The notes beneath the pieces were generated by a model, which was not told where the DNA came from, made no database searches, and worked only from the letters and a program-made list of their open reading frames with translations. DNA of 59,767 nt, taken from positions 9,043-68,809 of the forward strand of contig DIFW01000016.1 in assembly GCA_002419295.1 (NCBI GenBank). Reading direction: 5' to 3'. A program made the position numbers and the translations under genes. This document shows positions 2,296 through 52,000 of this stretch, piece by piece (positions within the stretch are counted from its first letter, which is position 1; the number at the start of each line of letters is the position of its first letter). Origin of the DNA: Patescibacteria group bacterium UBA5738. GTDB lineage: Bacteria; Patescibacteriota; Minisyncoccia; Minisyncoccales; UBA5738.

Positions 2296-2322
2296 AAAAA
2301 AAAGCGCAATGCGCTTTTTTTG
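2296..2322. terminator. Bidirectional intrinsic terminator between convergent genes
   Basis: The sequence aaaaaaaaGCGCaatGCGCttttttt is a short GC hairpin flanked by an A-run and a T-run. It lies between the pfkB-like stop and the stop of the minus-strand surface-protein gene. Confidence 0.5.
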
Positions 2323-2344: not shown

Positions 2345-3934
2345 TTATTGTTCCACGCAATAGAGCGCTCTTTGCACTGTATCGCAAACAGCGGGGCAAT
2401 TAGCGGGTTGGCCGACCTCTCCGGGGTTCCAGTGACCGGAGTATGTTCCGGCCCAATTTTGATTTTTGCTGGTGCTTTGGCCATAATAACAGCCGTCCCA
2501 ATAATAATGGCAAGTATTAGTTTGATAGCAAGTGTTGGCATAATTATAAGCGCCGCTACCGGTGGGTTGAAAATTGGTGAAGACTTGCGCGTTGGTCAAT
2601 TGGCCGAGTTCGTTGAATTGTATCGGATTTTGCAAATAATTGCCGCTGGCATCTACCGAAAACATATCATTGGGATCAGTGGCGACCAAATGCCATTCGC
2701 AGTTGGTGGTCGTGCCGATTTTTTCTCCGTTCCACAACGCCGCGCTGGGTAAAACATCGTGAGGTCGACGCGCAATATTTATTAGATTACAATTGCTTGT
2801 TCCTTGCTTGCAGGCAATCTCATACATCAGCGCTCTGTATATTCCAGTGAGGCCAGCCGCCGATGCCCGTGTTTGGCAGGCACGATCGGCGTTCTCCATT
2901 GTACTTCCGAGATTTGGAGTATGTACAACATAGTCATCGTAAACAATGCTAGTCACAAATATTTTTTTATTTCCAGCGGGTAAATCGGCGGTGCATCCTC
3001 CCACGGGAATAAACGGTCCGCCGCCGCCGAGACATTCCGCCCAACTGGTGCAACAATCATCGCCGATACACAATCCGTCCCGAGCTTTCACATAACCGGC
3101 CACATCCAGTTTTTGCCCCGGAGTGTTTGTTCCAATGCCGACATTGCCGCCATTATCGTTGATAATTACCTTGGAATTTGTCTTGCCGCCGCGGATATAG
3201 GTGTCCTCATCAACAGAATAATTAAAGTGGCTTTTATTATTTGTGCCGGCAAACACCGCCGTTCCTCCGTTGGCGGTACCTCTGGTAACATACAGAGTGC
3301 CATCAGGAGTGTTTGTTCCAATGCCGACATTGCCGTTATAACCCGCGATGGTTCCACCTCTACTGCCAAGTTTTATAGCTGAAACGGCATTGTTTTGCAA
3401 ACCGTAAATTCCCAGCGTGTTTGCCGCGTCAATGTCTGCCAAAAAGGCATCATCGCCAATTCTCAAAAATTGCGTTCCCGCACCCGCACCATTGTCGGCA
3501 ATATCCAATTTGCCTGCCGGAGAGCCAGTGCCGATGCCGACATTGCCGCCATCAGTTATTGTCATACGGTTGGCGCAAAGTCCACTACCACAACCGATAG
3601 TGTCATAAACCCAAAACTGAAGAGAGTTTCCATAGGTTCCTGTCATGTTGTAAATTTTCCATTGGTTTGCTATTCCGGGGTTGATTTTTGTGGAATTTAA
3701 AAGGGTTAAATAACCACCACTATCACCACCGCCAGTTGACATAAGTCCGCCGGTTGTCAAAGCTCCTTCTTTTGTTTGCGCGGTGCCGCCGGTGTTTATC
3801 GGGGCGGCGACATTGGGGTTGGGAGGATTGGAACCGGGCGGGGTCCATGCAAAAATCAGATAGCTTGCCGAAACCGAGAACACCAAAACTCCGGTCGATA
3901 ACGCCAACGCTTTGGCAAATTTTGTTTGTTTCAT
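2345..3934 (-). CDS. Secreted/anchored surface protein: N-terminal hydrophobic anchor, tail-fibre-like GNVGIGT repeats, Cys-rich endostatin/DUF1554-like C-terminal domain
   Basis: The 529-aa ORF starts with the signal/anchor MKQTKFAKALALSTGVLVFSVSASYLIFAW. It has three GNVGIGT(x)(S/T)P..(K/T)L(D/Y)(I/V) repeats. The C-terminus reads KKIFVTSIVYD...NADRACQTRASAAGLTGIYRALMYE...CEWHLV...ALYCVEQ. Confidence 0.8.
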   Translation of the reverse strand: MKQTKFAKALALSTGVLVFSVSASYLIFAWTPPGSNPPNPNVAAPINTGGTAQTKEGALTTGGLMSTGGGDSGGYLTLLNSTKINPGIANQWKIYNMTGTYGNSLQFWVYDTIGCGSGLCANRMTITDGGNVGIGTGSPAGKLDIADNGAGAGTQFLRIGDDAFLADIDAANTLGIYGLQNNAVSAIKLGSRGGTIAGYNGNVGIGTNTPDGTLYVTRGTANGGTAVFAGTNNKSHFNYSVDEDTYIRGGKTNSKVIINDNGGNVGIGTNTPGQKLDVAGYVKARDGLCIGDDCCTSWAECLGGGGPFIPVGGCTADLPAGNKKIFVTSIVYDDYVVHTPNLGSTMENADRACQTRASAAGLTGIYRALMYEIACKQGTSNCNLINIARRPHDVLPSAALWNGEKIGTTTNCEWHLVATDPNDMFSVDASGNYLQNPIQFNELGQLTNAQVFTNFQPTGSGAYNYANTCYQTNTCHYYWDGCYYGQSTSKNQNWAGTYSGHWNPGEVGQPANCPAVCDTVQRALYCVEQ

Positions 3935-4108
3935 TTTTATTTTTTTAAAATCTTTTTATAAATTCATTATAAATCAAAATAATTTAAAACAAAAATTATT
4001 TTCCGCAAAAAAAGTTCAGGGCTCATCGGCTCGGGGATGAATCTTGCCCGGCGGTTTGTCCCGGCGATGTTTGGCGGCGACAGGAAAACTTCGTTTACCC
4101 GGGACAGC

Positions 4109-5509
4109 TTATTGCTGTACGCAATAAAGCGCTTTTTGGGAACTGGCATCCATGCAGGGGGTACTGCAAAGCCCCATGCCGTTTAGCGGAGAAGATGCTC
4201 CCGCCCAATTCAAATCTTTGCTTGTGCTGTAACCATAGAAGCATCCGCGAATCGCCCCTCCCGTAATGTAGTCGCAGGTGCTGTATTGCAAGCAAGTATT
4301 CATCCGATCATAACCGCCATTACCCGTTGGCTGAAAATTTGTGAATACCCTTGCGTCGGTCAGGGTGCCGAATTCGTTATATTTTATCGGGTTTTGCAAA
4401 TAATTTCCGTCAGGGTTGACCGAGAACATATCGTTAGCGCCGGTCGCGACCAGGTGCCATTCGCAATTATTAGTCCCGCTGATTTTTCCCCCGTTCCACA
4501 GCGCCGCGCCGGGTAAAACATCCGTCGGATAACGCAAAACGGTAATAAGATTGCAATTGTTAAGTTGGGACAGCACGGTTTCATACATTAGCGCCAAATA
4601 TGTTCCTGAAAGACCAGCCGCCGCCGCCCGCGCCTGGCAGGCATTGTCGGCATTGGCCGTTGTGTATGTGAAATTTGCGGCGTGTACCAGCGCAACATCG
4701 TATGTGATGCTGGTGACGAATATTTTTTTATTTCCGGCGGGCAAAGGATCGGTGCAACCTGACACAGGAATGAAAGGGCTACCGCCGCCGCCCATGCATT
4801 CCTCCCATGTGGAACAGCACTGTCCTCCCAGACAAAGTTTGGTCCCAACATACACATTACCGGTTGGATTATTGATGTAAAGAGGGCGCAATGAATTCCA
4901 TGCTCCGTATTGGTTCTCCGAGTTGGTTAACAGAAAAAAAGTATTCGCGCCATCATTGCGCAACATCGCGCCGTAATTGCCGGCAACCATGCGCAGTTGG
5001 CCGTAGCCGGTGGACATTGTTGACTGCAATTCGCCGCTGGCCCGAACCGATCCGGCCACATCCAATTTTTGCGCCGGAATGGCGGTGCCGATACCGAGAT
5101 TGCCAGAATTTATCGTTGCTACCTCTGTGCCTCCATTAGTATTGATGAAATGGAAATTACCATTATACTCCCCAAAATACATATTGTTTCCCGTTGTCCC
5201 TGTTGAATAAATATAATGGTTGGCATCATTTGGCTCCAAATAAAGTCTGTTGGTGTTTCCGCCAGCATTGCCTCCGATACTAACACTGCCGCGGACATCC
5301 AACTTTTGCGTCGGGCTTTCAGTGCCGATGCCCAGATTGCCCAATTTTCCCTGCGCGTCGTTGCCGGTGTTTATCGGGGCGGCGACATTGGGGTTGGGAG
5401 GATTGGAACCGGGCGGGGTCCATGCAAAAATCAGATAACTTGCCGAAATCGAGAACACCAAAACTCCGGTTGATAATGCCAACGCTTTGGCAAATTTTGT
5501 TTGTTTCAT
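4109..5509 (-). CDS. Paralogous surface protein (same N-terminal module, tail-fibre-like repeats, endostatin/DUF1554-like C-terminal domain)
   Basis: The first roughly 49 residues of this 466-aa ORF are almost identical to those of the neighbouring gene. It has repeats GNLGIGTESPTQKLDV and GNLGIGTAIPAQKLDV. The C-terminus reads KKIFVTSITYD...NADNACQARAAAAGLSGTYLALMYE...CEWHLV...ALYCVQQ. Confidence 0.8.
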   Translation of the reverse strand: MKQTKFAKALALSTGVLVFSISASYLIFAWTPPGSNPPNPNVAAPINTGNDAQGKLGNLGIGTESPTQKLDVRGSVSIGGNAGGNTNRLYLEPNDANHYIYSTGTTGNNMYFGEYNGNFHFINTNGGTEVATINSGNLGIGTAIPAQKLDVAGSVRASGELQSTMSTGYGQLRMVAGNYGAMLRNDGANTFFLLTNSENQYGAWNSLRPLYINNPTGNVYVGTKLCLGGQCCSTWEECMGGGGSPFIPVSGCTDPLPAGNKKIFVTSITYDVALVHAANFTYTTANADNACQARAAAAGLSGTYLALMYETVLSQLNNCNLITVLRYPTDVLPGAALWNGGKISGTNNCEWHLVATGANDMFSVNPDGNYLQNPIKYNEFGTLTDARVFTNFQPTGNGGYDRMNTCLQYSTCDYITGGAIRGCFYGYSTSKDLNWAGASSPLNGMGLCSTPCMDASSQKALYCVQQ

Positions 5510-5669
5510 TTTTACTGAAAATACTTTCTATATAAACTTATTATAAAACAAAATAATTCAAAACAAAAATAAAAGTTATCCACAGTTTGCGATTTTCGCG
5601 CCGTTTATTGTTTTTGACAATTTGTATTATAATAGAATCGCGAGGTACAAAAAACAAAATTAAATTAAA

Positions 5670-5798
5670 ATGAGAATCAATATCAGCGTGATCAAGGCGG
5701 ATTTGGGCGCGATCGGCGGGCATATCCGCCCGTCAAAAGATTTGCTGGCGGCGGCGGAAAATCACATCAAAACGAAGAAGCAAGGGAATTTTGATTGA
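5670..5798 (+). pseudogene. fbp: Out-of-frame N-terminal 42 codons of FBP aldolase/phosphatase
   Basis: The ATG at 5670 gives MRINISVIKADLGAIGGHIRPSKDLLAAAENHIKTKKQGNFD*. This matches the conserved N-terminus (SVIKADIGS..GH) of class V FBPase. It ends at the TGA at 5796-5798 and is one frame away from the main body. Confidence 0.75.
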
Positions 5799-6771
5799 TT
5801 GGCGCGTTAGTTTCACCGGCGACGACATCGCGATTTTGGCGACGCACAACAAAGGTATTGAAAATGAAAAAGTGCACCGGCTTTGCTGGGACGCGTTTAT
5901 CGCGGGAATGAAAGTCGCCAAAGATCAGGGGCTTTACGGCGCGGGCCAGGATTTGTTAAATCTCAAATTTTGCGGAACATGCAAAGGGCTGGGGCCGGCG
6001 GTGGCGGAAATGGAATTTGAAGAACGCGACGCCGAACCGTTCTTGATGATCGCCGCGGACAAAACCGATCCGGGAGCGTTTAACTTGCCGCTCTATTTGT
6101 CGTTTTGCGATCCGATGCACAATGCCGGCTTGGTGATTTCGCCGAAAATCCGGCAGGGATATGTCTTTCGCATTGTTGATTTATCGCCTTCGGATAAAGA
6201 AAAATTCATCGAACTGAAATCACCTGAGGAAATATATGATATCGCGGTGTTGTTGCGCGATCAGGAAAGATTCGCGATCGAGTCGATTGTTTCGCGCGCC
6301 GACGGCGAAATCGCGGCGGTTGCCAGCACCACCCGTTTGCACAACATTGCCGGCAAATATGCCGGAAAAGACGATCCGGTGATGATTGTCAGAACGCAAA
6401 AGGGGTTTCCGGGGTCCGGGGAAATTTTGTCGCCCTATTCGATAGGACATCTGGTGGCCGGGTTTATGCGCGGATCGCATCACGGCCCGCTAATGCCGGT
6501 CAAGCAGAATACCGCGATTTCGTTTTTCGACGGGCCGCCGATCGTGAGTGCCGCGGCCTACAGCGTTCACAACGGCAAGCTGACCGAAGCCGCGGATTGT
6601 TTTGATCAGCCGTATTGGGATTATGTCCGATCGCGCGTTTCCCGAAAAGCCGAAGACATCCGGCGGCAAGGGTTTTTTGGGCCGGCGATGCTGGGAATGG
6701 GGGAACTGGAATACACCGAAATGGCGCCCATCTTGAAAAATTTGGAGAAAAAGTTTAATATCAAAAAGTGA
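5791..6771 (+). CDS. fbp: Fructose-1,6-bisphosphate aldolase/phosphatase (archaeal-type, class V FBPase), main body
   Basis: The protein reads (L)IDWRVSFTGDDIAILATH...GLYGAGQDLL...GLGPAVAEMEF...KTDPGAFNLPLY...GKYAGKDDPVMIVR...GSHHGPLMPV. From memory, this is collinear with the Sulfolobus/Thermoproteus enzyme. Confidence 0.85.
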   Translation: MIDWRVSFTGDDIAILATHNKGIENEKVHRLCWDAFIAGMKVAKDQGLYGAGQDLLNLKFCGTCKGLGPAVAEMEFEERDAEPFLMIAADKTDPGAFNLPLYLSFCDPMHNAGLVISPKIRQGYVFRIVDLSPSDKEKFIELKSPEEIYDIAVLLRDQERFAIESIVSRADGEIAAVASTTRLHNIAGKYAGKDDPVMIVRTQKGFPGSGEILSPYSIGHLVAGFMRGSHHGPLMPVKQNTAISFFDGPPIVSAAAYSVHNGKLTEAADCFDQPYWDYVRSRVSRKAEDIRRQGFFGPAMLGMGELEYTEMAPILKNLEKKFNIKK

Positions 6772-22010: not shown

Positions 22011-23513
22011 TTGATAAACAATAACCAAACAACAAATAATACGGTGGGAATTAAAAAAATTTTTCGGGAGGCTACAATCGCGCTGGTTGCCGCGATAATT
22101 TGCGGGAGCGCGGTTTGGGCGGGAAGTTTGACGCCCGGCGCGGGTCCGGCGGCCGGCGGCTACACCCTGGAAGATATTTATAATCGGCTGAACACCAACG
22201 CGGCGGCAACCGCGGGAAGCCACAGTTTTTCGCCATCGGGAACTCCTTCGGAATCAATGTATTCGCTGACGCAAATCTACGATAAAATTCCCACCATTGA
22301 CGGATCGAAAATTCTTGCCGGTACCAACTATCTGGGCGTGGCCGGCGTGATTGCCGATTGTTCAAATGAAGGAGGGAACGGCTGTTATGCCAACAGTGGC
22401 TATTGGACGGCCGCGGCGGGAAGCAATGTTTCGGGCGGCGCGGGATTGCTGACATTTAATATTCCCGACGGGTATTATTCGGGCAAAACCGCTACGGCGG
22501 TGGACGCGGATTTGATTTCGGCCAACATTAAAAACGGAATTAACATTTTTGGCGTGGACGGTAACGGCAATGTGGCGGACACTTCCAGCGGTGATGCCGT
22601 CGCCGGCGATATTTTGAGCGGTAAAACCGCGTGGGTGGACGGCACGGAAATTACCGGCAGTTATTCGCCCGCGGGTTATATTTGGACCAAGGCGGGCGCG
22701 GGTTCGTGGCAAGGCGTCAACGAAAATTTGGATTGGGTGCGGGGTATCGGCGATTGGGACTGGTGGGCCAGTCAGACATATTCTTATTGCGGGGAGGTCG
22801 CCTGTACTAATGACGGGTTATTAAAGAGCGCGGCCAGTTATATCGGGCCGCCGGGCGGCTGGAACGGTTCCAATGATTATGACAATTTTAATAATTCGGC
22901 CCTGTATAATTACGAGGTGATCACCGCCAATGGCACGAATTTGGGCGGTTGTGTTGCCGACGCGGGCGACTTGGCGTTTCCCGATGGGTCGGTGTGGGAC
23001 AAATCAAATGCCAATCCCTATTCGGTCAAACTGGCGGGGTGTGATTCCAGCAATGCCAGTTCCACCGAAATTTGGGCGGCAGCGGGCGGGAGCGGGTCGC
23101 AATACGCTTACGCGCGCAACGCGCCTGGAGCGTTGAGTATTGCCGACGCCTGGGACGGCAAAAAGAATTTAACTACCGGCCCGAATACCACGCATCCCTA
23201 TACCAATACGGGTACAAATAATGATTATTATGACCGGCCGGCGGTGTCCTGGTATGTCGACACTGGCGATGGGATTGGATACAGCCGCTTGCCGATGATT
23301 GAAGAATACGAACAGGCGCGGCAGGGAACCTCGGATTCAACGGCGAGTTTGCTTTACGGAACGGGAAATTATTGGTCAAATTATAATTGGTCCGCCGAGC
23401 AGACTCCGAACAACACCGCTAACATCCGCTATTTTCAACCGAGTAGCGGTGTCGTGAACAACACTGGCGTCAATTACCAGACCATTCGGATGTGGGTGGT
23501 AGCGCGCCAGTGA
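22011..23513 (+). CDS. Secreted protein, tail-fibre-like N-terminal part, possible DUF1566-like C-terminal domain
   Basis: This 500-aa ORF has the anchor ATIALVAAIICGSAVWA and motifs TLEDIYNRL, IKNGINIFGVDG and ILSGKTAWVDGTEITG. The C-terminus reads GYSRLPMIEEYEQA...YWS...IRMWVVARQ. The start codon is uncertain (TTG at 22011 or GTG at 22044). Confidence 0.7.
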   Translation: MINNNQTTNNTVGIKKIFREATIALVAAIICGSAVWAGSLTPGAGPAAGGYTLEDIYNRLNTNAAATAGSHSFSPSGTPSESMYSLTQIYDKIPTIDGSKILAGTNYLGVAGVIADCSNEGGNGCYANSGYWTAAAGSNVSGGAGLLTFNIPDGYYSGKTATAVDADLISANIKNGINIFGVDGNGNVADTSSGDAVAGDILSGKTAWVDGTEITGSYSPAGYIWTKAGAGSWQGVNENLDWVRGIGDWDWWASQTYSYCGEVACTNDGLLKSAASYIGPPGGWNGSNDYDNFNNSALYNYEVITANGTNLGGCVADAGDLAFPDGSVWDKSNANPYSVKLAGCDSSNASSTEIWAAAGGSGSQYAYARNAPGALSIADAWDGKKNLTTGPNTTHPYTNTGTNNDYYDRPAVSWYVDTGDGIGYSRLPMIEEYEQARQGTSDSTASLLYGTGNYWSNYNWSAEQTPNNTANIRYFQPSSGVVNNTGVNYQTIRMWVVARQ

Positions 23514-23545
23514 TGCGATTTGACCGGTTTTGATTTTTTTTGGTT

Positions 23546-25336
23546 ATGATGACGCAAAAAATCGTTAAATTTTTTTTGGTTTTGGCAATTGCTTTTTTTG
23601 GGGCCGGGGCGGTTTTTGCCGCCAGCGGTGATATTGATTCGACCGGTCGTTACGCGTGGACGGAAAACGCGGGCTGGCTTGATTTTGGTGCCAGCCAGGG
23701 AAATGTGCAGGTGGGCGACGCGGCGCTAACCGGTTATGCCTGGGGCGAAAATATCGGCTGGGTGTCGCTGAATTGCCTAAACACGGATTCTTGCGGCGCG
23801 GTGAGCTACGGGGTGGCAAACGACGGGAGCGGCAATCTTTCGGGTTATGCCTGGGGCGAAAATATCGGCTGGATAAATTTCACGCCGCCCGGCGGCGGGG
23901 TGAGTATCAATTCTTCGGGAGATTTTTCGGGCTACGCTTGGGGGCCGGAAATCGGCTGGATTGTTTTCAATTGCGCCGCTACCGATTCCTGCGCCAGCGT
24001 TGATTATAAAGTTAAAACCTTGTGGCGGGCGCAAACCGTGTCCGCGACTCCGTCAGTGCAAACCGGAGGCATTGCCGGGCAATATAATACCGCCTATATC
24101 AATGAACAAGCCTCAATGCCGGAAACACAAGTTTCAGCGCCGAAAAAAGAAACAAAATTGATTTTTGAGTGGCCGTGGAATTGGTTTGGCGATAAAAAAA
24201 CCGATACTGCCGCGCCGGCGCCGGCAACGCCGCCAAGCGAACCTGAAAGCATCCAACCCGATGATTTGTCCGCGGTTGAATTTGAAGTGGCGCCGCTTCC
24301 AAGCGAAGAAGCAAGGACCGTTCTTGAACAAAATCAAGAAAAATTTTCATTTTTGCCCGAATCGCTTTTTAGCTTTGCCCAAAAATTTCCCGAACTTTTC
24401 AAAGCTTTGCAAAAAACCGGCATTGAATTTGCCGCGGATCTTGCCAAGCTGAAAAACATATCGTTTAGCTTTGCCGGAATCGGCGAAAAATTGGGATTGG
24501 CCGCCGATGAATTGAGATTTGGCGCGATCTCATTTTTTGATTTGGCGCGAAACTATTACGAACGAATTCCCGTTGGAATTATTTTCGCGCGGACTGCCGG
24601 CGGCACCATTGATTTGCCGGTGAAAATTATCACTGATGAAAACGGCAACGTGTCGCAAAAAATTAATATTGTGGCGGCAAAACCGCTGGAATTGATCGTC
24701 AAGCCGGAGTTTCCGGCGCGGGTGGTGAAAGGCGTTATCGCATCGGCTTTGGCGGAAAATGAAACTCCCGACATTTTGTCCGAGTTTGACTATCAAGACG
24801 CGGGTAATGGTGTTTTTGCCGCCTCAATCATCGCGCCGCAAATTCGCGGCAAATACCATTTGATCGCCAAAATCGGCTATCGCGATCCCGAACAAGGTAT
24901 CGGGGAAATAAAAGTGAATTTGCTCATTGATCCCGAGGGCTATGTTTTTGAAAAATCCGGCGGCAAAGAAACAAGAATTCCCGGCGCGGCAGTGTCGCTT
25001 TTTTGGCAAAATCGTCAAACCGGCGCGTTTGAATTATGGCCGGCCGGCGATTATCAGCAGGAAAATCCGCAAATCACCGACGCCGCCGGTAATTACGCGT
25101 TTTTAGTCCCGCAAGGCAATTATTATCTGCAAGTTGAATCATCGGATTATGAAATTTACAAAAGCGGCCAATTTGAAGTGAAGACCGGCGCGGCGGTTCA
25201 TCAAAACATTGAGTTGAAAAAACGATTTTCTTGGCGTGGGTTGCTTTCTTGGGAATGGATGCTTTTTGCCGGATTGGTCGCCGCCGCGGCGCTGTCGGCG
25301 GTTAATTTCTTGCGCAACCGGCGGCCAAACCAATAA
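23546..25336 (+). CDS. Secreted GYAWGENIGW-repeat protein with carboxypeptidase-regulatory-like domain and C-terminal TM anchor
   Basis: It has a signal peptide and four (S/T)GYAW(G/T)ENIGW(I/V).(F/L)N repeats in aa 36-158. A PEGYVF...AAGNYAFLVPQGNYYLQV beta-sandwich-like domain and the C-terminal TM LFAGLVAAAALSAV follow. Confidence 0.75.
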   Translation: MMTQKIVKFFLVLAIAFFGAGAVFAASGDIDSTGRYAWTENAGWLDFGASQGNVQVGDAALTGYAWGENIGWVSLNCLNTDSCGAVSYGVANDGSGNLSGYAWGENIGWINFTPPGGGVSINSSGDFSGYAWGPEIGWIVFNCAATDSCASVDYKVKTLWRAQTVSATPSVQTGGIAGQYNTAYINEQASMPETQVSAPKKETKLIFEWPWNWFGDKKTDTAAPAPATPPSEPESIQPDDLSAVEFEVAPLPSEEARTVLEQNQEKFSFLPESLFSFAQKFPELFKALQKTGIEFAADLAKLKNISFSFAGIGEKLGLAADELRFGAISFFDLARNYYERIPVGIIFARTAGGTIDLPVKIITDENGNVSQKINIVAAKPLELIVKPEFPARVVKGVIASALAENETPDILSEFDYQDAGNGVFAASIIAPQIRGKYHLIAKIGYRDPEQGIGEIKVNLLIDPEGYVFEKSGGKETRIPGAAVSLFWQNRQTGAFELWPAGDYQQENPQITDAAGNYAFLVPQGNYYLQVESSDYEIYKSGQFEVKTGAAVHQNIELKKRFSWRGLLSWEWMLFAGLVAAAALSAVNFLRNRRPNQ

Positions 25337-46541: not shown

Positions 46542-49061
46542 ATGCATAATTTTTATTTTAGCGGGAGCGTTCTGGGAAGGCTTGTCGATGCCGGTTATGG
46601 CGCGCTGGCCAAAGCCGCGGCGCCGGCAACGCAAATATTCCCCGGAATTTGTCTCGGCACGCTGTTAATGGCGGGATTGGGTATTTTGCTGGCGGTTTTG
46701 CTGGCGGTTTTTTGGTTTTTGGTTAAAAGGCAAAATCGGGAGAAATTCAAAATGAGCCTGGATCTGGTATTGTTGTCGGTCAAGATTCCCGCTAAGACCC
46801 CCGAAGAGATCCAGCAATCGGGGCGGCAGGAAAAGGACTGGATAAAAGTGATGGAGGATTTTTATTCCAATTTGGTGTCGTTAAAACCAAAAGGATTTTT
46901 CCGGCCCAAGCCTTGGATCGCTCTGGAAATTGCCAAAGTGAAGGGCGAGATATGCTTCTATGTTGCCGCGCCGCGCCGCTATGAAAATTTCGTGGAAAAG
47001 CGCATCAACAGCATCTACCCGGACGCGCATATTGAAAAATGCAAAGATTTTAACATTTTTGGGCCCAAAGAGTCTGTTTTTTGCGGTTATGCCAAAACAA
47101 TCCGGCCGGTGTTTTTACCGTTAAAAACCTATGAATCGATTGAAACCGATCCGCTTTCGGCGATTACCAACACGCTTACCAAGCTGGCGGAAAACGAGGA
47201 GGCGGCGGTGCAAATAGTTTTGCGCAATACTTCCGAAATTTGGCGCGCCCGCGGGCGGGAAATTTTGGAAAAAGTTAAAAGGGGCAAAAGTTTTTCCGCG
47301 GCGATGGACGAGACCGGTTTGGCGGGCGCGCTTGGCGGAGCAAAAGAGGACCAAAACCGGCAATATATGGGACAGCAGGGCGACGAATTGCTTGCCAAGG
47401 CGATGGAGAGCAAAATAAGCAAGCGTAATTTTGAGGCAAATATTCGGATCGCGGTTTCCATTAAAGACGAATTTCGCAGTGAACAGGTTTTTGACCAGCT
47501 TGCCGGCGCGCTGGATCAATTTTCCGCGCCCGGACTAAATCAATTCCGCGTCAACAAAAAGAAAGGCAAGGCCGGCGCGGCGATTCTCAACGATTATATT
47601 TTTCGTAATTTTAACAATGCCAACAAATCAATTTTGAGCACCGAAGAGCTCACTGGCATTTTTCATTTTCCCACGCCGTTTTTAAAAACTCCGAATGTTA
47701 AAATTCTGAACTCCAAAACCGCGCCGCCGCCGGTAAATATCCTGCGCGAAGGATTACTGTTGGGTTATAACGAATATCGCGGCGACAAAAAGGACGCGTT
47801 TTTGGGCGTCAACGATCGCCGGAGGCATCTGTATGTTATCGGCCAGACGGGTACCGGAAAATCCGCCTTTTTATCCAACTTGATTGAACAGGATGTGCGA
47901 AACGGCGGCGGAGTGGGGGTTTTGGATCCGCACGGCGATTTGATTGACGACATTCTGGGCAAAATTCCCAATGAGCGGTTGGACGATGTGGTGATTTTTG
48001 ATCCGGCGAATCTGGCCTATTCCGTCGGTTTGAATATGCTGGAATATGATGCTCGTTTTCCCGAACAAAAAACTTTCATCATCAACGAGTTTATGAAGAT
48101 ATTCGACAAACTCTATGATTTGAAAGCCACCGGCGGACCGATGTTTGAACAATACGCGCGCAACGCCTTGCAATTGCTGATGGACGATCCCAAAGAAACC
48201 TATACATTGATGGAAGTGCCCAAAGTTCTGGCCGACAAAGATTTCCGCCACTATCTTTTGGCAAAATGCAGAAACATTCTGGTGAAAGAATTTTGGGAAA
48301 AACAAGCCGAAACGGCGGGCGGTGAAGCGTCGCTGAAGAATATGGTGCCCTATATTACTTCTAAATTTGACACCTTTATTTCCAATGATTATATGCGTCC
48401 CATCATCGGACAAGTGAAAAGCACCTTCAAATTCCGGGAGATTTTGGATCAAAAAAAGATATTTTTGGTGAATTTGAGCAAGGGCCGCTTGGGCGACATC
48501 AATAGCTCGCTTTTGGGGTTGATTATCACCGGCAAATTAACCATTGCCGCGTTTTCGCGCGTGGACACGCCCGAAGCCGACCGCACCGATTTTTATTTAT
48601 ATATTGACGAATTCCAGAATTTTGCCACCGACACGATTTCCACGATATTGTCCGAGGCGCGCAAATACAAGCTTTGCCTCACCATTTCGCACCAATTCAT
48701 CGGCCAACTGGAAGACGAGATCCGCGACAGCGTTTTTGGCAATGTGGGCACGATTTCATCTTTTCGCGTGGGAGTGGAAGATTCCGAATTTTTAGCCAAG
48801 CAATTTATGCCGGTGTTCAATTCCCAAGACTTAAACCGACTTGAAAATTACAATGCCTATGTCAGAATGTTAATCAACGGACAGGTGGCCTTGCCGTTTA
48901 ACATCAAGACCTACCCTCCGACCAAAACCGACCGCGGCCGCGCCGCCGACATCAAGGAATATTATTTGCTCAAAGAAGGCCGCGACCGCGAAGCCGTGGA
49001 GCGCGAAATTGAAACTCGGCGCCGCGCTATGGGCGTCCCCGTTCCAAATATCGAAAAATAA
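46542..49061 (+). CDS. VirD4/TraD/TraG-like (type IV coupling protein family) P-loop ATPase with N-terminal TM segment
   Basis: The 839-aa protein has the TM segment LLMAGLGILLAVLLAVFWFLV and the Walker A motif VIGQTGTGKSAF. Walker B lies in FYLYIDEFQNFAT. The TraG-D_C-like LTISHQFIGQL...GNVGTISSFRV is also present. Confidence 0.75.
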   Translation: MHNFYFSGSVLGRLVDAGYGALAKAAAPATQIFPGICLGTLLMAGLGILLAVLLAVFWFLVKRQNREKFKMSLDLVLLSVKIPAKTPEEIQQSGRQEKDWIKVMEDFYSNLVSLKPKGFFRPKPWIALEIAKVKGEICFYVAAPRRYENFVEKRINSIYPDAHIEKCKDFNIFGPKESVFCGYAKTIRPVFLPLKTYESIETDPLSAITNTLTKLAENEEAAVQIVLRNTSEIWRARGREILEKVKRGKSFSAAMDETGLAGALGGAKEDQNRQYMGQQGDELLAKAMESKISKRNFEANIRIAVSIKDEFRSEQVFDQLAGALDQFSAPGLNQFRVNKKKGKAGAAILNDYIFRNFNNANKSILSTEELTGIFHFPTPFLKTPNVKILNSKTAPPPVNILREGLLLGYNEYRGDKKDAFLGVNDRRRHLYVIGQTGTGKSAFLSNLIEQDVRNGGGVGVLDPHGDLIDDILGKIPNERLDDVVIFDPANLAYSVGLNMLEYDARFPEQKTFIINEFMKIFDKLYDLKATGGPMFEQYARNALQLLMDDPKETYTLMEVPKVLADKDFRHYLLAKCRNILVKEFWEKQAETAGGEASLKNMVPYITSKFDTFISNDYMRPIIGQVKSTFKFREILDQKKIFLVNLSKGRLGDINSSLLGLIITGKLTIAAFSRVDTPEADRTDFYLYIDEFQNFATDTISTILSEARKYKLCLTISHQFIGQLEDEIRDSVFGNVGTISSFRVGVEDSEFLAKQFMPVFNSQDLNRLENYNAYVRMLINGQVALPFNIKTYPPTKTDRGRAADIKEYYLLKEGRDREAVEREIETRRRAMGVPVPNIEK

Positions 49062-50239: not shown

Positions 50240-50395
50240 AAATCCTTTCAAATTAAGCCGCGTTAATTTTAAAACAAGATTTCGCGGCTTGTTTTTAATT
50301 CAATGGGGGACCTGTGCAAATTCGGTTGTGTTCAAAATGGAAAAGATGGGGTAAAATACACCAATACGCATAATCATATAAGTAAACACGCGAGT

Positions 50396-52000
50396 ATGAA
50401 ATTTAATAAAAAGTTTTTGATAATTTTGGCGGTGGCGGTTGTCGGCGCGTCGGCGTTTGCCTGGTTGCGGCCCAAGGCGCCGGAATATAAAACCGAAAGC
50501 GTGTCGCGGGGCGCGATTGTTGAAGAGGTGTCTGAAACCGGCAGTGTCAAAAAGGGGGAGGCGGTCAATTTGAATTTCAAAAACGCGGGCGTGATTGATA
50601 AAATTAATGTGATTGAAGGCCAAAAAGTTCTCTCCGGCCAGATTTTGGCCGAACTGGACAGTCGTCCGGCGCAAATTCAGCTTGATCAGGCGCGCGCCAG
50701 TTATGAAATGTATCATTTGCAGTTGCAAAAACTGAAAACCGGCGCGTCTGATGAGGACGCAAACATCGTTCAGCGCCAGGTGGAAGCGGCGCAAGCCGCG
50801 CTGGATGCCGCGCGGCAAGCGCTAAATGACGCCGAAGTTAACGCCGGGCAAAGATTGAACAGCGCCTATAAAACCGCGGCCGATGCTTTGTCCGCGTCAT
50901 ATATTAAAGGATACAACAGCTACAATTTCATCGATTTGCTCCAAAGAACTTATTTTGTTCCGCAGGATCAGGATTCAATTTCTATTTTTGAAGCCGCGCA
51001 AAAAATGAATCTGGCGGTGCGGCAAGTCCAGCAATTCGCGGATGCCGCTCAAGCCGATGCCAAAGATGGCGGATTGGACGCTGTTTTCGCGGGCGCGAAA
51101 ATCCAGCTGGCTGAGATTGAGTCGCGGTTGCGTTTCGCGCGCGGAGTGTGCGAGAAATTGCCGTGGCGGGATTCGGTTTCGCAAACCTATAAAGACGGCT
51201 TGGATTTGCATATCGGTTATATGGTGGCGGCGCAAGCGTCGTTTAATTCCGCGGTGGAAGCGGTTGCTTTGCAAAAAGCCGCCAACGACCTGTCAATCAA
51301 TTCTGCCGGCGCCGCGGTGAGTTCCGCTCAGGCCGCGCGAAATACCGTTGACGAACAGGCGGCAAAAGTTTTCGCGGCGCCGAGAGGCGAGGATGTGGGG
51401 ATTTTGGAGTTGCAGCTGACGCAGGCCGCCGCGCAAATTGATTTGTTGGGGTTGCAAATTAACGACAGCAAGCTGGTCGCGCCGGCGGATGGACGCATAT
51501 CGGAAATTAACGGCGAGGCCGGTGAAATGGTCTCTCCTCTTTCCGGCTCTCCCTTAATGGTATTTTTGCCGTCCGATCCCTATGAAGTGGAGTTGGATAT
51601 CTACGAAGAAGAGGCGGTGAAATTGAGTGTTGGCGATCCGGCGCGCATTTCCGTGGTGGCGCTGGGCGATGAAACCTTTACCGGCAAAGTGGTTTTTGTC
51701 GCGCCGGCGGGAAAAATAGTTAACGGCGTGGTTTATTACCGGACCCGGATCGCGTTTGATGCCGATTCGGAAAAAATAAAACCTGATATGACCGCGGATG
51801 TGGAAATTATCACGGCGCAAAACGACGATGCTTTACTGATTTCAGAATCCGCGTTGCGCCGCAAGGACGGCGGCTGGTATGTGCAGGTTGTCGAAAACGG
51901 CGCGCCGCGCGAGGTTGCCGTGCAGGCGGGCATCCGTGCCAAAGGGCTGGTTGAAATCGTTTCCGGCCTCGCCGAAGGCGACCAAGTGATAATCCCATAA
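50396..52000 (+). CDS. HlyD/MacA-family periplasmic adaptor with very long coiled-coil hairpin
   Basis: The TM anchor is FLIILAVAVVGASAF and the lipoyl-like motifs are GVIDKINVIEGQKVLSGQILAELD ... LVAPADGRISEINGEAGEMV. About 250 aa of helical hairpin lie between them. The ATG at 50396 was chosen. Confidence 0.85.
   Translation: MKFNKKFLIILAVAVVGASAFAWLRPKAPEYKTESVSRGAIVEEVSETGSVKKGEAVNLNFKNAGVIDKINVIEGQKVLSGQILAELDSRPAQIQLDQARASYEMYHLQLQKLKTGASDEDANIVQRQVEAAQAALDAARQALNDAEVNAGQRLNSAYKTAADALSASYIKGYNSYNFIDLLQRTYFVPQDQDSISIFEAAQKMNLAVRQVQQFADAAQADAKDGGLDAVFAGAKIQLAEIESRLRFARGVCEKLPWRDSVSQTYKDGLDLHIGYMVAAQASFNSAVEAVALQKAANDLSINSAGAAVSSAQAARNTVDEQAAKVFAAPRGEDVGILELQLTQAAAQIDLLGLQINDSKLVAPADGRISEINGEAGEMVSPLSGSPLMVFLPSDPYEVELDIYEEEAVKLSVGDPARISVVALGDETFTGKVVFVAPAGKIVNGVVYYRTRIAFDADSEKIKPDMTADVEIITAQNDDALLISESALRRKDGGWYVQVVENGAPREVAVQAGIRAKGLVEIVSGLAEGDQVIIP

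What the first reader, a model, noticed from the sequence alone, without database searches (positions are those of the whole stretch)
2345..5509. Tandem surface-protein paralogues with a homogenised promoter/signal module and diverged tail-fibre-like middles
Two adjacent minus-strand genes (529 and 466 aa) share a modular architecture. By my alignment, the first 147 nt of each CDS (3788-3934 vs 5363-5509) differ at only 4 positions. The 5' leaders share attataaaNcaaaataattNaaaacaaaaat. The central regions, by contrast, are strongly diverged. That pattern suggests either recent duplication with rapid diversification of the exposed part, or gene conversion confined to the promoter/anchor module. 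The middles carry GN(V/L)GIGT..(S/T)P..KLDV repeats. In gene 1 the 30-nt core ggagtgtttgttccaatgccgacattgccg occurs twice. I associate this motif with phage tail-fibre/endosialidase-chaperone-type proteins. The conserved N-terminus FAWTPPGSNPPNPNVAAPINTG follows a hydrophobic anchor. These are plausible cell-cell or host attachment proteins for an episymbiotic small-genome bacterium, and a candidate variable adhesin locus.
Basis: partly seen in the sequence, partly recalled or inferred. Interest (0 to 1): 0.7.

Follow-up and report, generated by a model that had tools for sequence, protein, structure and literature searches.

The report
Mosaic surface-fibre genes in a Patescibacterium
Two neighbouring genes of an ultrasmall (CPR/Patescibacteria) bacterium encode membrane-anchored, phage-tail-fibre-like surface fibres tipped with an endostatin-like binding domain, and they sit in a recombination hot spot where shaft pieces and tips are swapped between copies and strains, which makes them strong candidates for how such bacteria recognise partner cells.

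Summary
Two minus-strand genes (529 and 466 aa) differ at 4 of their first 147 nt and share a promoter-like element found nowhere else in the window.

The g2 shaft is firmly tail-fibre-like (Pfam Gp34_trimer 3e-21; solved Mu S and T4 gp34 fibres). The g1 shaft matches only Bdellovibrio MAT fibres and PHROG tail-fibre families, and weakly. The tip models confidently as an endostatin/DUF1554-superfamily fold.

Recombination is directly visible:
- A 99.7%-identical sister strain differs at 40 positions in 12 kb, 30 of them in one 73-nt patch of g2. Across 61 nt of that patch the window's g2 equals g1 exactly.
- Synonymous divergence is 0.09 in the 5' module and about 1.7 in the tips.
- Related genomes carry one or two differently assembled genes at the same site.
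- At a second locus, three samples share a 100%-identical 5' half joined to different tips.

Adhesin function, trimer state and surface exposure are inferred. The closest known analogue is the Bdellovibrio MAT fibre family.

The parts
4109..5509 (-). g2: 466-aa fibre gene (anchor, stalk, cassette m4, gp34-like cassette m5, neck, tip E2)
   Evidence: ORF. Cassette map. The sister-strain copy P0001 is 98% identical.
2345..3934 (-). g1: 529-aa fibre gene (anchor, stalk, cassettes m1, m2, m3, neck, tip E1)
   Evidence: ORF. Cassette map. The DNA is identical in L001.
5540..5569 (-). Shared promoter-like element upstream of g2 (ends in TATAAT)
   Evidence: There are only two copies in the window, with 0 expected by chance.
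3966..3995 (-). Shared promoter-like element upstream of g1
   Evidence: Its 5'UTR resembles that of the single orthologue in L004.
5420..5509 (-). g2 signal-anchor coding segment (aa 1-30: MKQTKFAK plus a 22-residue hydrophobic helix)
   Evidence: It is 95% nt identical to g1 in all strains and 90-93% identical to L004/L012.
3845..3934 (-). g1 signal-anchor coding segment
5351..5423 (-). Recombination patch in g2 (CDS nt 87-159). It holds 30 of the 40 window-vs-L001 differences across 12 kb. Positions 5363-5423 are 61/61 identical to g1 3788-3848.
3788..3848 (-). g1 stalk segment identical to the g2 patch (putative donor type)
3545..3757 (-). g1 shaft cassette m1 (aa 60-130), also found in P0019 and P0033
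3332..3505 (-). g1 shaft cassette m2 (aa 144-201), shared with many family members
   Evidence: The shaft profile hits the MAT fibre Bd2133.
3146..3304 (-). g1 shaft cassette m3 (aa 211-263). It is flanked by exact 30-nt repeats and is present or absent as a unit in relatives (P0021 vs P0023).
3120..3149 (+). Exact 30-nt repeat, copy 1 (encodes GNVGIGTNTP on the minus strand)
3306..3335 (+). Exact 30-nt repeat, copy 2, lying 186 nt (in frame) from copy 1
3500..3547 (-). g1 linker 1: GNVGIGTGSPAGKLDI
3287..3334 (-). g1 linker 2: GNVGIGTNTPDGTLYV
3101..3148 (-). g1 linker 3: GNVGIGTNTPGQKLDV
5294..5341 (-). g2 linker 1: GNLGIGTESPTQKLDV
5057..5104 (-). g2 linker 2: GNLGIGTAIPAQKLDV
5102..5293 (-). 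g2 shaft cassette m4 (aa 73-136), shared with P0007 and P0011
4874..5188 (-). g2 Gp34_trimer-like region (aa 108-212 by Pfam). It overlaps cassette m5 (aa 157-229, window 4823-5041).
   Evidence: Pfam PF21446 at 3.3e-21. PDB 5yvq, 4uxe and 5nxf. tblastn to 877 T4-like phage records.
3032..3070 (-). g1 Cys-rich neck: CIGDDCCTSWAEC
   Evidence: The neck is the tip-swap breakpoint in relatives.
4796..4834 (-). g2 Cys-rich neck: CLGGQCCSTWEEC
2348..3034 (-). g1 C-terminal tip domain E1 (aa 301-529), endostatin/DUF1554-superfamily fold
   Evidence: AF2 model at pLDDT 83.8 and pTM 0.85. Foldseek top 5 hits are all endostatins. Profile link to Pfam DUF1554/Endostatin proteins.
4112..4795 (-). g2 C-terminal tip domain E2 (aa 239-466), 63% identical to E1
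2297..2321 (.). Bidirectional intrinsic-terminator-like hairpin between the g1 stop and the convergent pfkB gene

Best explanation
g1 and g2 encode two versions of a cell-surface fibre of a Patescibacterium (Minisyncoccales-type CPR).

Architecture. Each protein is held in the membrane by an N-terminal helix, oriented N-in and C-out. A conserved Pro-rich stalk follows (AW-x-PP..PP..N..AP-I-N..Q-x-K-x-G-x-L). Next comes a probably trimeric, phage-tail-fibre-like shaft of 2-3 interchangeable cassettes joined by GN(V/L)GIGTxxPxxKLDV linkers. The protein ends in a Cys-rich neck (C-x-G-x-x-CC-x-x-W-x-EC) and a C-terminal endostatin/DUF1554-type lectin-like tip. I take the tip to be the ligand-binding end that recognises a surface structure on a partner or host cell.

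Diversification. The locus between the FBP aldolase/phosphatase and pfkB genes is a hot spot that diversifies by homologous recombination at the conserved junctions: the 5' promoter/anchor/stalk module, the linkers and the neck. Cassettes and whole tips are exchanged between paralogues and between strains. The near-identity of the 5' modules is partly family-wide conservation of the anchor and partly a very recent conversion-type event that overwrote the g2 stalk with g1-type sequence.

Shown here: the architecture, the homologies, the tip fold, the hot spot, the recombination tract and the allelic tip replacement.

Inferred: trimerisation, surface exposure, ligand binding, and the identity of the partner cell.
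For: Architecture and homology:
- g2 matches Gp34_trimer at 3.3e-21, Mu S and T4 gp34 solved structures, and gp34 in 877 phage records.
- The only PDB relatives of the g1 shaft profile are Bdellovibrio MAT fibres Bd2133, Bd3182 and Bd1334. It also hits PHROG tail-fibre families.

Tip:
- The AF2 model has pLDDT 83.8.
- The only significant PDB fold matches are the endostatin domains of collagens XVIII and XV, at probability 0.97-1.0.
- The profile finds 6,385 representative clusters. The four of six sampled members that carry the tip domain in several copies (3-12 matched stretches) pass Pfam DUF1554 and Endostatin cut-offs.
- Leptospiral endostatin-like DUF1554 proteins are described as adhesins (PMC2387172).

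Recombination:
- The window and L001 differ at 40 positions in 12 kb, 30 of them within 73 nt of g2 (P about 7e-59).
- 61 of 61 nt there equal g1, whereas stalk alleles of other genomes are only 56-89% identical to one another.
- dS is 0.086 in codons 1-49, against 1.6-1.8 in the tips.

Hot spot:
- The site holds one gene in L004-7, L010 and L012.
- It holds two genes in the window and L001-3.
- L011 has two genes, each followed by a cupredoxin gene.
- L014 has two genes separated by an IS.

Tip swapping:
- L008, L017 and L018 are 100% nt identical over CDS nt 1 to about 750-850 and have 96-98% identical flanks.
- Their tips differ, and the breakpoints lie in and around the neck, about CDS nt 750-935.

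Not phage-borne: the flanks are housekeeping genes in conserved synteny. No relatives were found in viral contigs.
Against: - There is no experimental or expression evidence.
- The trimer state was not modelled, and the full-length monomer model was unusable at pLDDT 49.8.
- The tip does not reach Pfam DUF1554 or Endostatin thresholds on its own. TM-scores to endostatin are moderate, at 0.44-0.57.
- The g1 shaft homology to fibres is weak and is partly carried by the linker motif.
- The 12 nt after the g1-identical tract (CDS nt 148-159) match neither g1 nor the sister-strain g2. The donor was therefore not simply present-day g1, and the direction of the event cannot be fixed.
- The window's recombinant g2 allele was not found in any other assembly.
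- The window carries at least one likely error or frameshift nearby, at position 5777.
- Tandem copies in L011 and L014 are not homogenised, so conversion is occasional and not systematic.
- Whether the N-terminal helix is a retained anchor or a cleaved signal peptide is unresolved.
Confidence: 0.62

Rival explanations
1. The pair arose by recent tandem duplication of one gene, followed by rapid point-mutation divergence of the exposed middle.
For: The 5' 147 nt are 97% identical, and the promoter element is duplicated.
Against: - The middles are unrelated cassettes, not diverged copies. Each cassette has 89-100% identical counterparts in other genomes' genes.
- The tips have dS of 1.6-1.8, against 0.09 in the 5' module.
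- The g1 tip is closer to P0005 (88%) and the g2 tip to P0003 (89%) than they are to each other (63%).
Confidence: 0.04
2. The pattern is an assembly artefact. Either the tandem pair or the g1-identical patch in g2 is a chimera produced by collapsing repeats or mixing strains.
For: - The exact g2 allele of the window is not on record elsewhere.
- The window has a 1-nt insertion that breaks the neighbouring FBPase gene relative to three sister assemblies, so its consensus is not flawless.
Against: - The tandem pair occurs in three other independent assemblies.
- The patch cannot be produced by a path switch between g1 and the L001-type g2, because CDS nt 148-159 (AACGACGCGCAG) match neither.
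- Exact matches shared between g1 and the L001-type g2 after nt 86 are too short to mislead an assembler.
Confidence: 0.1
3. The 5' identity is maintained by selection at the nucleotide level, for example on a promoter, a leader RNA or a secretion signal. Recombination is not involved.
For: The anchor-coding 86 nt are unusually conserved between genomes: 90-93% to L004/L012, where flanking genes are about 79%. The promoter element is also conserved in L004 and L012.
Against: - In three sister-strain assemblies the stalk segment of g2 differs from g1 at 24-25 of its 61 nt (59% identity) in an otherwise 99.9% identical background. The sequence is therefore not constrained.
- Stalk alleles differ by 11-44% between genomes.
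- Tandem copies in L011 are only 74% identical in this region.
Confidence: 0.08
4. The genes are remnants of a prophage or tailocin. They would then be true tail fibres and not cellular surface proteins.
For: g2 matches Gp34_trimer and many PHROG tail-fibre families.
Against: - No phage genes are nearby. The locus lies between FBP aldolase/phosphatase, L25, pfkB and ppsA in conserved synteny across diverged genomes.
- Every member has an N-terminal membrane helix.
- The tip has no viral structural match.
- No relatives were found in 2.9 million viral contigs.
Confidence: 0.03
5. The fibres are surface-exposed, but their role is not partner or host recognition. Possible roles include envelope or spacing structure, capture of polymers or DNA, self-aggregation, or acting as phage receptors or decoys that diversify under phage pressure.
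For: - Nothing here identifies the ligand.
- Recombination-driven tip turnover would also be expected under phage pressure.
- In L011 each fibre gene is followed by a cupredoxin gene, which is not an obvious adhesion partner.
Against: - The closest characterised analogues are recognition or adhesion devices: Bdellovibrio MAT fibres, phage fibres and leptospiral Len proteins (PMC10769870; PMC2387172).
- Allelic tip replacement on a conserved shaft is the signature of specificity switching.
- Cultivated Patescibacteria live attached to hosts (abstract of bioRxiv 10.1101/2024.11.25.624915).
Confidence: 0.2

Closest known systems
Bdellovibrio bacteriovorus MAT (mosaic adhesive trimer) fibres (Caulton et al. 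2024, PMC10769870; PDB 8OND, 8OML, 8OL4, 8OJN)
   Same: - Both are cellular, not viral, phage-tail-fibre-like surface fibres of a bacterium that lives on other cells.
- Both keep a conserved cell-proximal end and swap C-terminal tips, which in MAT include a C-type-lectin-fold tip (Bd2740).
- Both have a recurrent capping-loop or linker motif. MAT has V-G-G/N-pi-x-x-P-x-x-x-L; this family has GN(V/L)GIGTxxPxxKL.
- MAT fibres are the only solved structures hit by the g1-type shaft, and g2 hits one weakly.
   Different: - These proteins are half the size (466-529 aa against about 1,000).
- They have no ~130-aa beta-rich N-terminal domain. An N-terminal membrane helix plus a 29-aa Pro-rich stalk takes its place.
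- The tip fold, endostatin/DUF1554, is not among the described MAT tips.
- The organism is a monoderm CPR bacterium.
- Sequence similarity is marginal (E 3e-4 to 2e-3).
- Here the mosaicism is seen as ongoing allelic exchange in natural populations.
Phage long tail fibres: T4 gp34 C-terminal region (PF21446; PDB 4UXE, 5NXF) and Mu tail fibre protein S (5YVQ)
   Same: - g2 residues 65-233 align to these trimeric fibre domains.
- The architecture is modular, with conserved junctions that permit mosaic exchange.
   Different: - The gene is chromosomal and membrane-anchored, not part of a virion.
- Identity is only 33-35% over one cassette.
- g1 lacks this domain.
- The tip is non-viral.
Endostatin domain of collagens XVIII/XV, and leptospiral endostatin-like (Len, DUF1554) lipoproteins
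   Same: - The tip shares the fold and the ADxxCQxxAxxAGLxGTYKAL motif, with a profile link to Pfam DUF1554/Endostatin proteins.
- In collagen XVIII the endostatin domain also caps the C-terminus of a trimeric rod (general knowledge).
- Len proteins are reported as adhesins (PMC2387172).
   Different: - The tips here are larger (about 230 aa against about 135-180) and carry Cys-rich insertions.
- They are below Pfam thresholds.
- No ligand is known.
Recombination-based surface variation systems, such as phage tail-fibre mosaicism and gene conversion between expressed and donor adhesin or pilin copies
   Same: Short conserved segments flank variable cassettes. A discrete conversion-type tract (61-73 nt) and whole-tip replacement are both documented.
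   Different: - No silent cassette array was found within the 59.8-kb window.
- No dedicated recombinase, invertase or DGR was found.
- Exchange seems to be occasional and occurs partly between strains.
- Both copies have their own promoter.

Membership tests
MAT (mosaic adhesive trimer) superfamily, Bdellovibrio | Shaft homologous to MAT or phage trimeric beta-helix/prism fibres | tested here: inconclusive
   The g1-type shaft profile hits Bd2133 (8OND) at 3.3e-4, Bd3182 at 0.05 and Bd1334 at 0.057. g1 alone hits 8OML at 0.002. g2 hits 8OL4 at 0.0018. The matches are partly driven by the linker motif.
MAT (mosaic adhesive trimer) superfamily, Bdellovibrio | Conserved ~130-aa beta-rich N-terminal domain directly after the signal peptide (PMC10769870) | tested here: not met
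   In g2 the first shaft linker starts at residue 57. Only a 29-residue Pro-rich stalk lies between the helix and the shaft.
MAT (mosaic adhesive trimer) superfamily, Bdellovibrio | Capping-loop motif V-G-G/N-pi-x-x-P-x-x-x-L | tested here: inconclusive
   GN(V/L)GIGTxxPxxKLD(V/I) occurs five times. It is similar, but one residue longer between the V-G and the P.
MAT (mosaic adhesive trimer) superfamily, Bdellovibrio | Mosaic design: conserved proximal end, swappable C-terminal tip | tested here: met
   Cassette map. Allelic tip replacement on an identical 5' half.
MAT (mosaic adhesive trimer) superfamily, Bdellovibrio | Trimeric and surface-displayed | not testable with these tools
   No multimer prediction is available, and the monomer model was poor. 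Surface display is only inferred from the N-terminal helix.
Pfam PF21446 Gp34_trimer (T4 long tail fibre proximal subunit, C-terminal domain) | Score above the Pfam gathering threshold | tested here: met
   g2 scores 76.4 bits against a cut-off of 27, over residues 108-212. g1 has no hit, so this applies to g2 only.
Pfam PF07588 DUF1554 / PF06482 Endostatin | Score above the Pfam gathering threshold | tested here: not met
   g1 and g2 give no hit. Only 1 of 24 tips reaches DUF1554, at E 0.11.
Pfam PF07588 DUF1554 / PF06482 Endostatin | Endostatin-type fold and transitive homology | tested here: met
   The Foldseek top 5 hits are all endostatin domains, at probability 0.97-1.0. The tip profile hits P0140, P0153, P0152 and P0200 at 1.7e-53 to 2.7e-29. 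All four pass both Pfam cut-offs.
Peptidase_S74 intramolecular chaperone (endosialidase-type) fibres | C-terminal S74 domain (PF13884) | tested here: not met
   g1 and g2 have no PF13884 hit. It is present only in distant hits such as P0034, P0045 and P0050.
DGR (diversity-generating retroelement) target protein | Template repeat matching the variable region | tested here: not met
   The window holds no second copy of any tip segment. The ten largest ORFs outside the locus include no RT, although smaller ORFs were not scanned. Tip variation is by replacement, not A-mutagenesis.
Type IV pilin / pseudopilin | Class III signal (G|F-T-L-I-E) at the N-terminus | tested here: not met
   The N-termini read MKQTKFAKALALSTGVLVFS...FAW, and no such motif appears in any family member.

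The most novel reading that the evidence does not exclude
This family may be the host-range determinant of Minisyncoccales-type Patescibacteria. It would be a compact fibre, found so far only in Patescibacteria-labelled sequences, that joins phage-derived shaft cassettes to an endostatin/DUF1554 lectin-like tip through a Patescibacteria-wide 'membrane helix + AWTEPxxxPPxxNxxAPxN' anchor. Tip swapping at two chromosomal hot spots would then correspond to switching between partner cells, possibly methanogenic archaea, since the source samples are methanogenic hydrocarbon-degrading enrichments.
Probability: 0.3. Interest if true: 0.85.

Novelty: new variant of a known kind. Interest (0 to 1): 0.62.

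Why it matters
How ultrasmall episymbiotic bacteria identify and bind their hosts is largely unknown, and work so far centres on type IV pili (abstract of bioRxiv 10.1101/2024.11.25.624915). This locus offers a concrete, testable candidate. It is a short, modular fibre with a defined tip domain that can be expressed on its own, and natural allelic series exist that differ only in the tip. It also extends the 'cellular tail-fibre' idea (Bdellovibrio MAT) to the CPR. It shows recombination tracts at single-strain resolution. And it links the large, mostly uncharacterised DUF1554/endostatin superfamily to a fibre-tip role.

Tried and rejected
- The full-length g1 AF2 monomer gave pLDDT 49.8, so it was not used for fold search.
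- The search for related loci with the 24-sequence tip alignment failed for lack of a conserved stretch. A 6-sequence alignment found only 4 loci in species-representative genomes.
- The N-terminal-module search returned only short, mostly truncated gene calls. It therefore shows the module is widespread but not which architectures carry it.
- Two metagenome DNA scans, one for the recombinant junction and one for the g1 stalk, returned nothing. The second was a positive control that should have recovered JGI contig L001, so the collection lacks these samples and both nulls are uninformative.
- A look-up of the exact window g2 protein found nothing on record.
- The sigma-70 consensus scan did not call the shared TATAAT element, because its spacing is non-canonical. 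It also found no terminator between g2 and g1.
- A DGR was considered and rejected.
- A prophage origin was considered and rejected.
- The weak g1 hit to a designed Kelch protein (7ong) was dismissed as Gly-rich repeat noise.
- The direction of the 73-nt event could not be fixed with outgroup alleles.

Full report
**1. The observation**

The two minus-strand ORFs exist as described: g1 is 2345-3934 (529 aa) and g2 is 4109-5509 (466 aa). Their first 147 nt differ at positions 33, 39, 61 and 72 only, which are three synonymous changes plus V21I. Identity collapses immediately afterwards.

A 30-nt element ending in TATAAT (TTTTTGTTTTRAATTATTTTGWTTTATAAT) lies upstream of both genes. It occurs nowhere else in the window, and no matches are expected by chance.

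The exact 30-nt repeat is at 3120-3149 and 3306-3335, an in-frame 186 nt apart. GN(V/L)GIGTxxPxxKLD(V/I) occurs three times in g1 and twice in g2.

**2. Not an artefact, and where it comes from**

Three independent assemblies carry the same tandem pair in the same context. These are L001-L003, from methanogenic hydrocarbon-degrading enrichment metagenomes. They are 99.6-99.7% identical to the window over 9-12 kb.

The neighbours are housekeeping genes:
- Immediately flanking: ppsA, pfkB, FBP aldolase/phosphatase, L25 and a lytic-transglycosylase-like gene.
- Further along the window: DnaE, PheT, GyrB, GatB and ThyX.

Named relatives are labelled Patescibacteria group bacterium UBA6102, Minisyncoccales bacterium and similar. 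There are no phage genes nearby and no relatives in viral contigs.

**3. Anatomy**

Both proteins begin with MKQTKFAK and a 22-residue hydrophobic helix. A Pro-rich stalk follows, whose conserved positions (W30, P38, N41, P45, N47, Q53, G57) are invariant across a 12-sequence sample of the family. A profile of this module retrieves many further Patescibacteria proteins, mostly truncated gene calls, of the form AWTEPTxAPPxGNVAAPxNxGxxxQxKxGxL.

The middles are built of discrete cassettes. g1 has m1-m2-m3 and g2 has m4-m5.

The g2 shaft is securely fibre-like:
- Pfam Gp34_trimer at 76 bits against a cut-off of 27.
- Phage Mu tail fibre S (5YVQ) at 3e-14 and T4 gp34 structures at about 5e-11.
- tblastn to gp34 of 877 T4-like phage records at 33-35% identity.

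The g1 shaft has no Pfam or direct phage match. It does hit PHROG tail-fibre families at 1e-7 to 7e-10. Its only solved-structure relatives are the Bdellovibrio MAT fibres Bd2133, Bd3182 and Bd1334.

A Cys-rich neck (C-x-G-x-x-CC-x-x-W-x-EC) precedes the tip in both genes.

**4. The tip**

An alignment of 24 tips gave a confident AF2 model, with pLDDT 83.8 and pTM 0.85. The only significant PDB fold matches are the endostatin domains of collagen XVIII and XV: 1DY1, 1KOE, 1DY0, 1BNL and 1DY2, at probability 0.97-1.0 and target-normalised TM 0.53-0.57. A sequence profile already pointed the same way through the motif ADxxCQxxAxxAGLxGTYKAL.

The tips themselves fall below Pfam thresholds. An exhaustive profile search found 6,385 representative clusters, 743 of them at E <= 1e-10. 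They include giant proteins with up to 12 copies of the domain. I scanned six hits against Pfam. The four with several copies of the tip domain passed both the DUF1554 and Endostatin cut-offs. The two single-copy hits matched neither.

The tip is therefore a divergent member of the endostatin/DUF1554 superfamily. It has no match among predicted viral structures. Leptospiral endostatin-like DUF1554 proteins are described as adhesins (PMC2387172).

**5. Recombination in the window's own lineage**

The window and L001 differ at 40 positions in 12 kb, and 30 of them lie in window 5351-5423, which is g2 CDS nt 87-159. The probability of such clustering in a given 73-nt interval is about 7e-59.

The three-way alignment shows two layers:
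- CDS nt 1-86 and the promoter are shared by g1 and g2 in all strains, and the four differences are retained.
- At nt 87-147 the window's g2 is 61/61 identical to g1. The g2 of L001-L003 is only 59% identical to g1 over the same stretch.

This stalk segment is otherwise one of the most variable parts of the gene. Alleles from different genomes are 56-89% identical.

The next 12 nt (148-159) show the opposite pattern. The L001 g2 resembles g1, while the window's g2 (AACGACGCGCAG) resembles neither. Three conclusions follow:
- The event was a short conversion-type replacement with a g1-type donor.
- The donor was not simply today's g1, or the tract is composite, and its direction cannot be fixed.
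- A naive assembly path switch between g1 and g2 cannot produce this sequence.

Synonymous divergence is 0.086 for codons 1-49 and 0 across the 20 stalk codons. In the tips it is 1.6-1.8. This rules out a recent whole-gene duplication followed by point-mutation divergence.

**6. What is conserved and what is homogenised**

The anchor-coding 86 nt are 95% identical between g1 and g2. They are also 90-93% identical to the single orthologue in L004/L012, whose flanking genes are only about 79% identical to the window. The anchor and promoter are thus a generally conserved or exchangeable handle. Only the stalk identity is specific to this strain.

Tandem copies in L011 (74%) and in UBA6102 (L014) are not homogenised. 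Conversion is therefore occasional.

**7. A hot spot with cassette and tip turnover**

The FBPase-pfkB site is occupied differently in different genomes:

| Genome or locus | Content at the site |
|---|---|
| Window, L001-L003 | Two genes |
| L004-L007, L010, L012 | One gene, a different mosaic in each genome type |
| L011 | Two genes, each followed by a cupredoxin gene |
| L014 (UBA6102) | Two genes separated by an IS-like transposase pair |

The single L004 gene combines g1-type m2-m3, the g2-type gp34 cassette and an E4-type tip, which at 76% is closer to the g1 tip than to the g2 tip.

The family-wide map shows three anchor types, at least 12 cassettes and at least 7 tip types in many combinations. 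The same cassette often appears at 90-100% identity in different contexts. Cassette m3 is present or absent as a unit (P0021 vs P0023). In g1, m3 is bracketed by the exact 30-nt repeats, which would allow precise in-frame loss.

A second locus lies between glnA and a CDP-alcohol phosphatidyltransferase gene. There, contigs from three samples are 100% identical over the first 750-850 nt of the CDS and have 96-98% identical flanks. They carry three different tips, and the breakpoints fall in and around the Cys neck, at about CDS nt 750-935. This is allelic tip replacement.

**8. Mechanism proposed**

I propose membrane-anchored, probably trimeric surface fibres whose endostatin-like tips bind a surface ligand of a partner cell. 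They diversify by homologous recombination at the conserved junctions. The tandem pair provides two specificities and mutual donor sequence.

Trimerisation, exposure, binding and the partner's identity are all inferred. The source samples and the known archaeal parasitism of some Minisyncoccales (PMC10936435, PMC12281837; titles and abstracts) make methanogens a plausible partner, but this is speculative.

**9. Comparison with what is known**

The closest characterised system is the Bdellovibrio MAT family (PMC10769870). Those are cellular phage-like trimeric fibres with a conserved proximal end, swappable tips (including a C-type-lectin tip) and a similar capping-loop motif.

The present family fails one MAT-defining feature, the ~130-aa N-terminal domain. 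It also differs in size, anchor, tip fold and host lineage. I therefore treat it as a new variant of that kind and not as a member.

The six papers that mention MAT fibres do not concern Patescibacteria. A structure-prediction and metatranscriptome study of Minisyncoccales parasites does not mention fibres or lectins.

**10. Caveats**

- The recombinant g2 allele is known only from this window.
- The window has a probable 1-nt error or frameshift 268 nt upstream of g2.
- The metagenome DNA scans were uninformative.
- The full-length model failed.

Noticed in passing
window 5670-6771 (indel at 5777): The FBP aldolase/phosphatase (FBPase_3) gene next to g2 carries a 1-nt insertion relative to the sister assemblies. 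The window reads AAACGAAGAAGCAAGG where L001 reads AAACGAAAAGCAAGG. This shifts the frame at about codon 36, which leaves a 326-aa ORF in place of the 366-aa gene. It is either a sequencing or assembly error, or a pseudogene in this strain.
   Followed up: partly
L011 9380-9850 and 11351-11857: In this related genome each of the two fibre genes at the hot spot is followed by a small Cupredoxin_1-domain gene (156 and 168 aa). Their role, possibly as accessory or partner proteins, is unknown.
   Followed up: no
L014 1994-3032: In UBA6102 the two hot-spot fibre genes are separated by two ORFs (140 and 168 aa) that look like a split IS630-type transposase, judged by eye from the translations and not scanned against any library. 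Mobile DNA has entered the hot spot.
   Followed up: no
L012 4961-6570: The fibre gene P0006 (464 aa) ends inside the tip domain and is followed by a 60-aa ORF. This is probably a frameshifted or pseudogenised copy, or an assembly error.
   Followed up: no
window 22011-25336: Two large adjacent ORFs (500 and 598 aa) lie in the most GC-rich part of the window (0.537). The first has no Pfam hit. The second has only a sub-threshold CarboxypepD_reg match. They may be further surface or secreted proteins.
   Followed up: no
window 46542-49061, 50303-52000, 54304-56385: Three ORFs on the plus strand may relate to secretion or cell-surface functions. They are a HerA/VirD4-like ATPase (839 aa), a HlyD-family protein (565 aa) and a Beta_propel-domain protein (693 aa).
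   Followed up: no
proteins P0140, P0144, P0150, P0152, P0158: The tip-domain profile retrieves giant proteins (2,200-3,100 aa) with 7-12 matched stretches (copies or fragments) of the endostatin/DUF1554 domain. P0140 also carries FN3 and teneurin-NHL domains. The organisms they come from are unknown.
   Followed up: partly
L001 14909-17401: Just beyond the window's left end, the sister strain carries Fic/RhuM, AbiEii and DUF6922 genes, which are defence or toxin-antitoxin-like. Related genomes have HicAB or other cargo at the same position, so the hot spot's surroundings are also variable.
   Followed up: no
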